This document shows, piece after piece, positions 39,001 through 42,000 of a stretch of 64,000 nt of DNA; position 1 is the stretch's first letter, and every line of letters starts with the position of its first letter. The DNA comes from an uncultured Methanosarcinales archaeon (lineage in GTDB: Archaea; Nanobdellota; Nanobdellia; Woesearchaeales; DATDXC01). Made by a program: the position numbers. The stretch lies in NCBI GenBank assembly GCA_964510025.1, contig CAZDZV010000004.1:64611-128610 (forward strand). Direction: 5' to 3'.

Positions 39001-42000
39001 TCGGTAGGATCAACATGTTCTATCCCTGTCTCATACAGCATCTCAAGCTCCCTGAAAACATCTGTCTCCTTTAGGCTGTTGAAGATGTTGATTGTCTTCT
39101 GGGAATCGTCTGTAAGGCTTTTTTTGACCCTTGACACTATCTCTTCTGGCTTTACCGCGATATATCTAATAGGCTTCCCTATCTTCATGATTATGAAGCC
39201 CTTCTTTTCAAGGCTCTCAAGCACATCATAGCATCTGCTTCTAGGCACCCCAGAAATATCTGCAAGCTCTCCTGCTGTCGCAATCCCCCTGCTTAAGAGT
39301 GCAGTCCAGATTTTCACTTCATATATGTTGAGCTTGAAATCGTTCTTTATTCTGGTCAAAAATTCCCTCTGCACTATCATGTTCAGAAAGAATGAATTAC
39401 TCCTATTTAAAGCTTTCTATTTTACACTACTCTAAAGTAGTATATTATCTTAGCATCGTTACCGCTACTATTATGAATGAAAGTATAACCACGAAGGCTA
39501 TGGCACCGATGACAGTGGCTGTTCCGTATTCATCCCAGAAACCTGGATCAGAATATTGCTCATCAATAGGCACATAGATGGGTATCAGCTCTTCTTCTTC
39601 ATCTTCTTCATCTTCTGCCTCTTCTTCCTGCTCAGACACACAAGCTGCGATGTTCAGGTTTACAGATGCGCTTTCTTCTCCGTCCCCATAGTCTGCTGTT
39701 GCCAAGATAGGGTATAATCCTTCAGATGCATCCACTATGAGGTTAAACTTCCTCCTATATTTGCTGTCATCATCAAAAGGATCCTCATCCAGTTCAAAAT
39801 TGTCCCTGATATCGATGCCCAGGTCCGGATTGGATATGGTCAGCTCAACATCTTCATTTTCAGTGCCAAGGTTTATCAACGTAACATCCAAGGTGGACCC
39901 TCCCCTGCAGGCAACTGTCTCAGGATACAGTTCTATCTTTTCAAACATTATATCATGCCTGTCCTTCTCCACCTCAAGCTCATATTCTATGATCTTTTCA
40001 TACTCAACACCCTTCTCATCCTCTGCAGTTATTATCAGCTTTGCGCTGTAGTCATCCTCCTCAACCTCAAGCGGAATGTCAAAAGTTATCACCAGCTCTT
40101 CCTTGTCATCAGCGTCTATGCCTGACTCGTCTGACTCTTCCTCAATATCATCTCCATCGTCTATGCCTTCGATTATTATCTCAGCTGAGACATCCTCTAT
40201 CTCTATATCGACATCATCTGGATATAGGTTCTCCACCTCTACCTTGATCTCGATCTCAGATTCAGGCTCAACATCCTTTATCTTTCCGCCATCCTCGTCT
40301 GCGCTGCTTTTATCTCCATCAACGTATATCTTAACCTCTTCCACCCTTAGCATATCAGGTAATGTCCCGAATTCCCCGTATCTGAAGCCTATTACATCAT
40401 CATCTTCAGCGCAATAATGCCCTGAGAATGACTCAAGGTCTTTATTCCAGCAGTTGCCGCCGCTGAATCCCACAGGCATATACGCCCACTCCCCGTCGTT
40501 GATGATATAGAATCCCCAGTAATTTGATCCCCAGGCACACGATGTTCCTATTACATTGTCTCCTTTTCCCTCAATCTTGCATAACGCCCTGCCAAAAGCA
40601 CCTTCATCGCTCCATGTGAAATCAAGATCTGACTGCTCCAGAAGCTCAAATCCGCTTGTCCCTTCCGCAACATTTAAGCAGTCACCTTCTGCCTTATCGT
40701 CCTCCATCTGAACGACTATGCATACTTCAGCAGCGCTAACCGCCGCTATACACAATAAACCAATCAAAAAGACTATACTTTTCATTTAGACCCCCCTATC
40801 AGTTTAAATCTATCAAGCAATTCCTTGCACACCTCTCGTTGGTTGAATTCACCCTTTTCCTCAATAAATACTTTTGTTTTTGGAATGAGTAGTGAAAAAA
40901 CAAGGTTGCTGCCCAGATGCACCGCCCCAAAAGGAAGCGCTGTCAAAAACAGGGTGAAGAATCCAAAAGGAAACATGAAAACTGAGCCGATATTCACAAC
41001 AACCTCAAAGATAAAGGTTGCAAGTGCCGAGATAAGCAGCAAATGCCATATTCTTGCTTTCTTCCCCAGAAAACCTCCAAGCCAGCCAGCTATCCCAAAG
41101 CCTATTGCCTGGAATAGGCTCCATACTCCTTGTCCCCCAAAAACAAGAAAATTAGAGGCATAAAGGGCTCCGGCGCCTGTGATAAATCCCTTTCTTTTCC
41201 CAAAAAGCCATCCCGCAAGGATCGCAAAGAAGGTTATTGGCTCTGCGCTCGGTACAGCCTGCATCGGCACCCTTAGTGCAGCAGCTCCCAGCGTGAATCC
41301 GACCAGCACAAGCCATTCTCTAAGCTTAAGTACCTGCAGCTGCTTCTGCAGCGACAGCTGCGCCAGCCTCTGCTTTGAATCTGACTTTTTCTTCTTTAGG
41401 ACTAATTTCTGGTTCATAATATCCTCAGAGAAATCCGAAACCATCGGACTGCTCCACGATCCTTTGTTTCTGATAAGTGTTCCGGCTTTACGGTTGCGGG
41501 TCAGCGTTGGATTTCCACCATGCTTTCCTTTATCAGATATAATCACTAAACATATCAATTATAAAAACTTTTCGCTTGCTTCCATGGCAGCATTACGCAT
41601 TCGTCAGAGTCCATCATGCTATAGTCTGCTTTTCCGTTGAAGACAAATGTTTTTACCTCATTTCCCTTAAGGATCTCCCTTGCTTTCTTCAGGGTAGCTC
41701 CTGTCCGTGAAACATCATCAACAACAAGAATCTTCATGTTGCTTATACCTCGGAACTTCATAGCCAGCTTTGGCCCTCTGTGTTTTATCTTGTTTTTCTC
41801 ATCCCTGTATTCAAGCCATAGGATATCCATGGGTATCTTTAGGATAGATTGGATCATGCCCCCAAGTATTACCCCACCAGAGCCTATCGCCACTATCATA
41901 TCAAATTCCCCGAACCTTATCTCTTTTAGCCTGGAAAAAAGCTCCTCAAAACTTATCATCGTATAGTTCCTGTCTTCTTGTATGTAAGCCAGGCAAGCCA

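What a model noticed while it worked through the whole genome (the two positions that open the first line are those of the whole stretch)
39445..41539. Cobalamin (AdoCbl-II) riboswitch in an archaeon, in front of a two-gene corrinoid uptake operon
C4 106149-106077 (minus strand) is a class-II cobalamin riboswitch aptamer. 22 nt downstream starts g00689, a solitary ECF-S-component-like membrane protein (DUF6580). It is followed by g00688, a surface protein with signal peptide and C-terminal anchor, whose N-terminal domain has the cobalamin-binding beta-domain fold of transcobalamin/intrinsic factor. The genome has B12-dependent enzymes (MetH g00673, four B12-binding radical SAM enzymes) but no corrin synthesis genes and no EcfT/EcfA module, so this looks like its B12 scavenging system, switched by B12. 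I found no report of cobalamin riboswitches in Archaea.
Evidence so far: Rfam RF01689 scores 36.9 bits (cut-off 36.5), E 2.8e-6/2.8e-7; there is one copy in the genome. The same family occurs in 12 of 150 other Woesearchaeales genomes searched, 8 over the cut-off, up to 57 bits. In 6 of the 15 loci (own included) the first downstream ORF is a g00689 homologue (45-70% id; once fused to a g00688 homologue), and in one a corrinoid adenosyltransferase-like ORF. An alignment of 11 archaeal copies keeps the B12-box core. RNAalifold predicts 7 pairs, 3 with compensatory changes, and a conserved GGATCGTGGAG-type tail with the RBS follows the aptamer. A flank test finds a P1 of 5-8 bp of differing sequence in 5 of 11 copies and 2-4 bp in the rest. 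AF2 model of g00688 resi [...]
(Added by a program. Inside this text positions count along the whole contig: contig position 64,611 is position 1 of the stretch shown here. "Call 12" and the like, gene names such as g00115 and contig names such as C1 are that model's own, and its searches are not shown. The text may have been shortened before it was handed on; [...] marks where a part breaks off. The agent that wrote the report below was given it as the finding of a first reader that could run no searches.)

Follow-up and report, generated by a model that had tools for sequence, protein, structure and literature searches.

The report
Vitamin B12 riboswitch in DPANN archaeon
A vitamin-B12-sensing RNA switch of a type described from bacteria sits behind an archaeal promoter in front of two probable B12-capture genes of a small archaeon; its read-out half is rebuilt, and relatives that lack it usually carry a DNA-binding regulator at the same genes instead.

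Summary
Confirmed. Window 41539-41467 (-) is a class-II cobalamin aptamer (RF01689, 36.9 bits) on an archaeal contig, behind a TATA box; it recurs in 4 of 4 family genomes, 12 of 150 order genomes and 4 of 42 genomes of a second phylum. Correction: the GGATCGTGGAG tail is hairpin P13, whose loop kisses L5 (one pair covaries C-G/G-C/U-A, canonical in 124 of 135 copies). Its GGAG is probably not this gene's ribosome site: homologues point to the AUG at 41417. A stronger, mutually exclusive anti-P13 hairpin hides a conserved U-rich strand; ligand should release it. The output step is unresolved; termination or decay is my best guess. The operon encodes a CbrT-like S component and a surface protein with a transcobalamin beta-domain fold (Z 13.2). 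Among 42 genomes with the S gene, the riboswitch occurs in 12 of 21 without and 1 of 21 with a DUF4443 regulator, which comes with a 17-bp palindrome. I found no printed report of archaeal cobalamin riboswitches in open-access searches, but one paper says so in passing. This scan noted the riboswitch and DUF4443 operators before on other genomes. No ligand or expression data.

The parts
41558..41574 (-). Archaeal promoter: BRE-like CGAAAAG (41574-41568) and TATA box TTTTTATAAT (41567-41558); inferred start site near 41540-41535, at the 5' end of P1
   Evidence: Sequence. TATA-like motif 30-46 nt before J3/4 in 46 of 49 archaeal-type copies, shuffle mean 8.0, maximum 17. Start site inferred from usual archaeal spacing (own knowledge).
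41467..41539 (-). Class-II cobalamin aptamer: P1/P3 (41537-41528 with 41477-41469, one bulged A), J3/4 GAAAG, P4 with T-loop (41520-41508), P5/L5 (41503-41495), short P6 (41493-41482), J6/3 AACA
   Evidence: Rfam RF01689 36.9 bits; pair counts on 49 copies: 94.4% of cells paired, 11 of 22 pairs with changes on both sides, 0 of 500 shuffles as high.
41446..41462 (-). P13 hairpin (GGAU/GUCC) with loop L13 CGUGGAGCA; L13 CG-U-GG kisses L5 CCCG (4 pairs in this copy)
   Evidence: L5 position 2 and L13 position 5 covary (C-G 57, G-C 31, U-A 31, G-U 4, A-U 1 of 135).
41428..41454 (-). Anti-P13 hairpin GAG-CA-GUCCGA / UCGGAU-UU-CUC, mutually exclusive with P13; its 3' strand (41438-41428) is U/C-rich
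   Evidence: Free fold -16.4 versus -8.7 kcal/mol with P13 forced; pairing better than shuffles in 37 of 43 copies, mean z -1.5; self-complementary loop insertions in relatives.
41442..41444 (-).
   Evidence: Sequence; an AUG lies 1-2 nt after P13 in 11 of 43 anti-P13 copies.
41415..41426 (-). Likely Shine-Dalgarno GAGG (41426-41423) and start codon AUG (41417)
   Evidence: Homologue consensus MxQKLxLK; GAGG peaks 5-9 nt before starts in this genome.
40782..41417 (-). g00689: ECF S-component-like membrane protein (DUF6580), CbrT-like, 211 aa (220 aa from 41444)
   Evidence: Pfam DUF6580 39.5 bits; profile hits only weakly (E 0.06-0.09) to S components 5D0Y, 6FNP, 4HZU; 6FNP is ECF-CbrT (PMC12075633).
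39445..40785 (-). g00688: 446-aa surface protein; signal peptide, transcobalamin-beta/DUF4430-like domain, acidic stalk, C-terminal membrane anchor; start overlaps the g00689 stop (AUGA)
   Evidence: Sequence; AF2 of residues 19-150, pLDDT 88.6; VIA-align Z 13.2, rmsd 1.7 A over 94 residues to transcobalamin 2bb6, next unrelated fold Z 7.3. Signal peptide and anchor read by eye.

Best explanation
A functional class-II cobalamin riboswitch that turns a corrinoid-scavenging operon down when B12 is present. Transcription starts at the 5' end of the aptamer from an archaeal TATA promoter. P13 forms first. With cobalamin bound, the L5-L13 kissing loop locks P13, so the anti-P13 hairpin cannot form and its U/C-rich 3' strand (AUUUCUCU) stays single-stranded 10 nt ahead of the ribosome site. 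Without ligand the stronger anti-P13 hairpin replaces P13, hides that strand, and both genes are expressed. I think the exposed strand most likely triggers premature termination or cleavage, for example by aCPSF1 (about 0.4); local masking of the GAGG/AUG at 41417 is second (about 0.2). g00688 captures corrinoids at the surface; g00689 carries them across the membrane without an ECF module, to supply MetH and B12 radical SAM enzymes. Shown: sequence, covariation, promoter position, gene context, fold. Inferred: ligand binding, sign of the switch, output step, transport. That the RNA is a real cobalamin sensor at all: about 0.9.
For: Rfam match; 4 of 4 family genomes; covarying P3, P4, P5, P13; kissing-loop covariation, mutual information 1.2 bits against at most 0.63 at other L13 positions; TATA position; the free fold drops P13 in 43 of 49 copies; the UU of the 3' strand is kept in 30 of 32 parsed copies, in 15 of them with no pairing partner; relatives place the same element before CobA/BtuR and, in bacteria, MetE, classic B12-repressed genes (repression from own knowledge); CobA-like ORFs occur under both the direct architecture (L088) and the anti-P13 architecture (L008, L049, L053), which argues for one sign; aCPSF1 is encoded, 906 bits; near exclusion with the DUF4443 regulator.
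Against: No ligand or expression data. aCPSF1 of Methanococcus needs U4 tracts for efficient binding and did not bind U3 tracts (PMC8716108 passages); a U4 run lies near the strand in only 6 of 49 copies and not in this one. TTCT is not enriched after genes in this genome once antisense coding sequence is controlled. The released strand does not pair with the start region better than shuffles (mean z +0.35, 8 of 39 negative). Forcing P13 leaves the start region as open or more open in most copies. The architecture fits the description of AdoCbl-binding Cbl-IIb, yet I found no adenosyltransferase, mutase or class I/II reductase in this genome. The CbrT match is weak (E 0.08).
Confidence: 0.6

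Rival explanations
1. Classical translational switch: translation starts at AUG 41444, its Shine-Dalgarno is the GGAG in L13, and the ligand-locked kissing loop hides it.
For: GGAG lies 7 nt before an in-frame AUG, inside this genome's preferred spacing. This geometry is real in 5-6 archaeal copies without an anti-P13 hairpin (L059, L085, L088, L135, L202, perhaps L010) and in the bacterial metE copy L057. An AUG sits 1-2 nt after P13 in 11 of 43 anti-P13 copies; some read in frame or stop just before the main start.
Against: In this copy the anti-P13 hairpin buries GAG and the AUG when P13 is absent, so the site would be closed in both states. 32 of 43 anti-P13 copies have no AUG there. The homologue consensus starts at the residue of 41417.
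Confidence: 0.2
2. ON switch: the anti-P13 hairpin, ending about 10 nt before the start codon, hinders initiation; cobalamin removes it and raises expression.
For: The hairpin ends 9-14 nt before the start in 25 of 37 copies (after dropping L049 and L051 where I chose a wrong start). Start-region accessibility rises with P13 forced in most copies.
Against: Targets are uptake genes. Direct-architecture copies controlling the same kind of gene can only be OFF switches by geometry (L088). In this copy accessibility is the same in both states (0.55 against 0.50).
Confidence: 0.12
3. Relic or contaminant: a bacterial fragment binned into, or recently moved into, the archaeal genome, no longer regulating.
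For: Score barely over the cut-off; the closest non-archaeal copies are Margulisbacteria metE riboswitches at 74-77% identity; all genomes are assembled from metagenomes.
Against: 157-kb contig with archaeal markers; archaeal promoter at a fixed distance; the named close homologues of g00689 are all archaeal; compensatory changes across families.
Confidence: 0.05

Closest known systems
Class-II cobalamin riboswitches (Rfam RF01689 AdoCbl-II; env8 Cbl-IIa; Cbl-IIb)
   Same: P3-P6 four-way junction, T-loop L4, short P6, L5-L13 kissing loop, P13 after a linker (PMC7367189 passages; PMC6158498 introduction part 1).
   Different: Archaeal host and promoter. P1 runs into P3 with at most a 1-nt bulge, so the bulged J1/3 of env8 Cbl-IIa is absent and the layout fits the Cbl-IIb description. 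Extra anti-P13 hairpin with no bacterial-type terminator (0 found).
Same-core riboswitches of Margulisbacteria and Melainabacteria
   Same: Identical P5/P6/J6-3 core; Termititenax/Margulisbacteria copies share L5 ACCCG and L13 CGAGGAG and sit before MetE.
   Different: Bacterial -10-like elements instead of TATA (41 of 83 other copies against 6 of 49); other L5/L13 pairs in most.
CbrT, S component of ECF-CbrT (PDB 6FNP), and solitary BtuM
   Same: S-component fold family; aligned motifs RxxxxxxPxxxP and GxGxWTxxQ. Solitary use without EcfT is described for BtuM (PMC6072759 passages).
   Different: Profile match to CbrT is weak (E 0.08); EcfT not found; no cysteine in the membrane core, unlike BtuM Cys80; conserved N- and C-terminal extensions.
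Transcobalamin/intrinsic factor/haptocorrin beta domain and DUF4430 proteins (3u7z)
   Same: Fold, Z 11.5-13.2, rmsd 1.7-2.2 A; homologues in related operons score to DUF4430.
   Different: 12-18% identity; this copy has no Pfam match; carried on an archaeal anchored stalk; binding untested.
Known archaeal riboswitches (TPP, fluoride; also FMN, Mg-I, guanidine-II predicted)
   Same: Ligand-sensing leader RNA in an archaeon.
   Different: Cobalamin is not in the lists of PMC5473149 section 11 or PMC8281238 (passage).
'CBL-box' operator and PH0730/DUF4443 winged-helix proteins (PDB 2P8T)
   Same: Palindrome at archaeal B12 genes; the regulator next to the operon in relatives matches 2P8T, E 2.5e-13.
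   Different: Found in relatives, not in this genome. The name CBL-box comes from earlier scan notes and recall; the paper was not held, so identity with that motif is untested.

Membership tests
Class-II cobalamin riboswitch | Rfam RF01689 score at or over the gathering cut-off | tested here: met
   36.9 against 36.5 bits; class-I model RF00174 gives 26.6 against 31.5.
Class-II cobalamin riboswitch | P3-P6 four-way junction with covarying stems and short P6 | tested here: met
   P3 88.6%, P4 96.4%, P5 100%, P6 100% of cells paired; P6 never varies, so it is conserved but not shown by covariation. The alignment was fitted to the model.
Class-II cobalamin riboswitch | T-loop in L4 | tested here: met
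   UGGAAAU in this copy, UGAAAAU consensus; lost in L007.
Class-II cobalamin riboswitch | L5-L13 kissing loop | tested here: met
   Four pairs possible here; one position covaries in three pair types over 135 copies. The other positions are invariant, partly fixed by my search patterns.
Class-II cobalamin riboswitch | In a 5' leader, ahead of B12-related genes | tested here: met
   Between TATA box and operon; S component, transcobalamin-fold protein, CobA, MetE downstream.
Class-II cobalamin riboswitch | Binds a cobalamin and changes expression | not testable with these tools
   No ligand assay possible; no RNA run listed.
Cbl-IIa (env8 type) | Bulged J1/3 segment between P1 and P3 | tested here: not met
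   P1/P3 is continuous with one bulged A; definition from PMC7367189 Fig. 1 legend.
Cbl-IIb | Short paired or mismatched J1/3 and small P6; selective for AdoCbl | tested here: inconclusive
   Layout fits; selectivity untested, and no AdoCbl-making or AdoCbl-using family was found among those searched.
ECF S component (CbrT) | Sequence family of S components | tested here: met
   DUF6580 over cut-off; many homologues also carry PF07155/PF12822; only weak PDB matches.
ECF S component (CbrT) | Works with an EcfT/A/A' module | tested here: not met
   CbiQ/EcfT family not found in a 97.7% complete genome, control rang in 11 of 14. Works like a solitary S component.
BtuM | Cysteine as cobalt ligand in the membrane core | tested here: not met
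   The only cysteine is C206 in the C-terminal tail; BtuM was not among profile matches at E up to 1.
Transcobalamin beta / DUF4430 domain | Beta-grasp fold of the cobalamin-binding domain | tested here: met
Transcobalamin beta / DUF4430 domain | Binds cobalamin | not testable with these tools
   Fold and context only.

The most novel reading that the evidence does not exclude
DPANN archaea took a class-II B12 riboswitch from bacteria and rewired it to archaeal machinery: ligand binding unmasks a U-rich strand that lets aCPSF1/FttA cut or terminate the nascent transcript. This would be a natural riboswitch gating factor-dependent termination in Archaea. The same uptake operon switches between this RNA and a DUF4443 protein repressor across Woesearchaeales families, a paired natural experiment in RNA-versus-protein control.
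Probability: 0.3. Interest if true: 0.88.

Novelty: new variant of a known kind. Interest (0 to 1): 0.72.

Why it matters
Surveys list only a few riboswitch classes in Archaea and cobalamin is not among them (PMC5473149, PMC8281238). This element shows the class established in at least two archaeal phyla, under archaeal promoters, with a read-out that cannot be the usual bacterial one in most copies. It gives a short (about 130 nt) RNA on which riboswitch control of archaeal termination or initiation can be tested, assigns a likely B12 role to a DUF6580 / transcobalamin-fold operon and to several unknown genes, and ties the uncharacterised PH0730/DUF4443 family to the same regulon.

Tried and rejected
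RNA data: no RNA holder was listed; no evidence either way. Viral contigs: 0 matches to the core pattern. Model R1 had P3 off by one column through my error; it was not used, R2 replaced it. R2 found no genome beyond the 13 of 151 that Rfam found. Single-sequence AF2 of g00689 was poor (pLDDT 60, pTM 0.27) and was not searched. A first TATA count of 29 of 49 came from a slicing error; one search corrects it. An apparent TTCT enrichment after genes (52 of 90 against 18) vanished when antisense coding sequence was excluded: rejected. Pairing of the released strand with the Shine-Dalgarno as a general rule: rejected. A conserved upstream ORF: present in only 11 of 43. The 175-aa and 220-aa unknown ORFs are not detectably related and have no Pfam match. 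The DUF6580 search in five named-locus genomes rang nowhere, controls included, and shows nothing. Nine hits whose record titles say Methanosarcinales were not taken as evidence for methanogens; their genes look like the Woesearchaeales set. L072 is a chance hit without the 5' half. The literature search for PH0730/CblR gave only unrelated papers. The tree rests on about 85 nt and a midpoint root; I use it only as a hint.

Full report
OBSERVATION. Rfam RF01689 (AdoCbl-II) matches window 41539-41467 on the minus strand, full length, 36.9 bits against 36.5, once in the genome. The class-I model stays under its cut-off here and in all 151 order genomes searched. The window is archaeal: eS8, type II GAPDH, MiaB-like-B and the archaeal N-glycosylase pass their NCBIfam cut-offs (18 of about 46 window ORFs were scanned). 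A BRE-like CGAAAAG and a TATA box end about 20 nt before P1.

DISTRIBUTION. All 4 other genomes of the family carry the element (3 over the cut-off), as do 12 of 150 other order genomes; my own model R2 found the same 13 of 151. A phylum-wide sample gave 4 of 151, all in the own order. An exact-pattern scan of the species genome collection gave 46 stretches, 29 with archaeal and 17 with bacterial record titles, one a chance hit. Centred on the record titled Aenigmatarchaeota, a separate phylum of 42 genomes holds 4 copies, ahead of CobA-like ORFs. A metagenome scan stopped at 120 loci. In a rough tree 47 of 50 archaeal-type copies group with three Margulisbacteria metE copies and two unlabelled ones (support 0.92); this hints at a bacterial source and perhaps a second entry, no more.

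ANATOMY. I hand-picked 49 archaeal-type copies by record title, downstream gene or tail; the metagenome ones carry no taxonomy. On their alignment 94.4% of cells pair, 11 of 22 pairs change on both sides, 0 of 500 shuffles reach this and slid controls give at most 41% (the alignment was fitted to the model). A TATA-like motif starts 30-46 nt before J3/4 in 46 of 49 (shuffle mean 8.0, maximum 17); the 83 other copies show it in 24 (shuffle mean 13.8) and a bacterial -10-like hexamer in 41. Its CG-U-GG pairs with CCCG of L5. Over 135 distinct copies, bacterial ones included, L5 position 2 and L13 position 5 form C-G 57, G-C 31, U-A 31, G-U 4, A-U 1 and no pair 11 times; mutual information is 1.2 bits against at most 0.63 elsewhere in L13. 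Kin inflate these counts, and my patterns fixed several other loop positions. Among archaeal copies only one genus shows the G-C swap.

EXPRESSION PLATFORM. Two layouts exist. In 5-6 archaeal copies and the bacterial metE copy L057 the start codon follows P13 within 1-3 nt and L13 holds a GAGG, the classical translational switch. In the rest, this copy included, a downstream strand pairs with the end of L13 and the 3' arm of P13. The free fold drops P13 in 43 of 49 copies; of the 6 that keep it, 4 are direct-layout and 2 were mis-parsed. Here the energies are -16.4 against -8.7 kcal/mol. This pairing beats shuffles in 37 of 43 copies (mean z -1.5), and insertions in its loop are self-complementary. 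The UU of that strand is kept in 30 of 32 parsed copies, in 15 without a partner, so its sequence seems to matter. The homologue consensus starts MxQKLxLK, which puts the start at 41417, 10 nt after the hairpin. What the released strand does is open. It does not pair with the start region more than shuffles do (mean z +0.35). It has U3, while aCPSF1 of Methanococcus needs U4 tracts for efficient binding, though 79% of units without a U4 tract still depended on it (PMC8716108, passages). aCPSF1 is encoded here. No bacterial-type terminator is present. I rank termination or decay 0.4, masking at 41417 0.2, masking at 41444 0.2, ON switch 0.12.

GENES. g00689 is DUF6580; named close homologues are all archaeal (best 120 of 187 listed); its profile weakly matches S components including CbrT (6FNP identified in PMC12075633, passages). 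g00688 residues 19-150 fold (pLDDT 88.6) like the transcobalamin beta domain, Z 13.2, rmsd 1.7 A over 94 residues, well above the next fold at 7.3. Related operons add a small DUF4430 protein. The genome (97.7% complete) has MetH and six more B12-binding ORFs, five with a radical SAM motif. Not found with the families or queries used: EcfT, CbiC, BtuF type, PduO, methylmalonyl-CoA mutase, class I/II reductase, CobA, MetE, PH0730-like. Corrin synthesis was tested by CbiC alone. The layout fits AdoCbl-binding Cbl-IIb (PMC7367189, passages), which sits oddly with a genome that shows only methyl-type users; selectivity is open.

RNA OR PROTEIN. g00689 homologues occur in 48 of 301 order genomes and DUF4443 in 56 of 301; both tallies include three genomes flagged unpublished. 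Dropping those three and three weak hits leaves 42 genomes with the S gene. The riboswitch is found in 12 of 21 without DUF4443 and 1 of 21 with it (Fisher p 0.0005, overstated because kin are not independent). The palindrome TTGGA-N7-TCCAA, mostly TTGGATAT-N-ATATCCAA, has perfect arms in 10 of 27 S-gene loci, none of them among the 8 with a riboswitch, and in 16 of 28 DUF4443 loci. Nine S-gene genomes show neither regulator. No claim here rests on the unpublished genomes beyond the two raw tallies; loci L025, L026, L034, L069, L253 and L268 were left out.

LITERATURE. Searches: cobalamin riboswitch + archaea, 125 papers, 30 listed; archaeal riboswitch, 0; Woesearchae + riboswitch, 0; four phrasings of riboswitches in archaea, 9; CblR, 0. 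PMC5473149 section 11 lists TPP, fluoride, FMN, Mg-I and guanidine-II for Archaea. PMC8281238 (passage), PMC11549558 (passage) and PMC3766115 (passage) agree that cobalamin is not among them or do not name it. PMC7002113 and 10.1101/538918 (passages) found it only in bacteria. Against novelty: PMC9600662 calls the class widely distributed 'in bacteria and archaea' without naming a case in the passages seen, and PMC11621547 built cobalamin alignments from GTDB genomes (passages) that may hold these sequences. I read no supplements and could not see subscription papers or Rfam's species lists. PMC6158498 (introduction part 1), PMC6072759, PMC10450193 and PMC13675443 (passages) served for definitions. 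Earlier scan notes report the same riboswitch in two other Woesearchaeota genomes, others in Micrarchaeota, and DUF4443 operators in other archaea; I saw them after my own tests and count them as leads only.

VERDICT. A real class-II cobalamin riboswitch (about 0.9) established in archaea, with a rebuilt read-out whose last step is unproven. New variant of a known kind; interest 0.72.

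Noticed in passing
L024, L027, L030, L031, L033, L035, L039, L042, L045, L047, L230 (relatives): 17-bp palindrome TTGGATAT-N-ATATCCAA at the start of riboswitch-less operons, usually beside a PH0730/DUF4443 winged-helix gene; candidate B12 operator.
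   Followed up: partly
L002, L014, L016, L064, L065 (over 380 aa); L011, L062, L006, L009 (155-175 aa); L059, L085 (about 220 aa); L018 (93 aa): Unknown ORFs directly under the riboswitch, often upstream of the S gene; the ones scanned had no Pfam match over cut-off. Candidates for new B12-related proteins.
   Followed up: partly
L020:2119-2214 and 2901-2994: Two riboswitch copies 780 nt apart, each with its own TATA box; both have lost most of P13 but keep L13 and the anti-P13 hairpin.
   Followed up: partly
L007:412-518: Family member that lacks the L4 T-loop and has a compensatory G-C to C-G change in P5; 24.5 bits in Rfam, 80.8 in R2.
   Followed up: partly
window 40782-41417: The S component has a conserved N-terminal Q/L-rich helix and a C-terminal tail with a nearly invariant cysteine; possibly a stand-in for the missing ECF module.
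   Followed up: no
window 41558-42546 (-): A second ECF S-like gene (PF12822, 28.5 bits, under cut-off) and a phosphoribosyltransferase lie just upstream, opposite PRPP synthase; similar neighbours in L021, L032, L040.
   Followed up: no
window 12775-15938 (-): 763-aa MetH ends with the B12-binding domain, so it seems to lack the reactivation domain; MetF follows.
   Followed up: no
window 19825-35373 (-): 5182-aa secreted-type protein; by eye it holds subtilase-like and gingipain-like stretches; not scanned.
   Followed up: no
L056, L058, L093, L129, L141, L184 and similar (bacterial-type): Melainabacteria-type copies control unknown proteins with a CPHG-x(4)-CP-x-C motif, and others show a three-strand switch ending near the ribosome site.
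   Followed up: no
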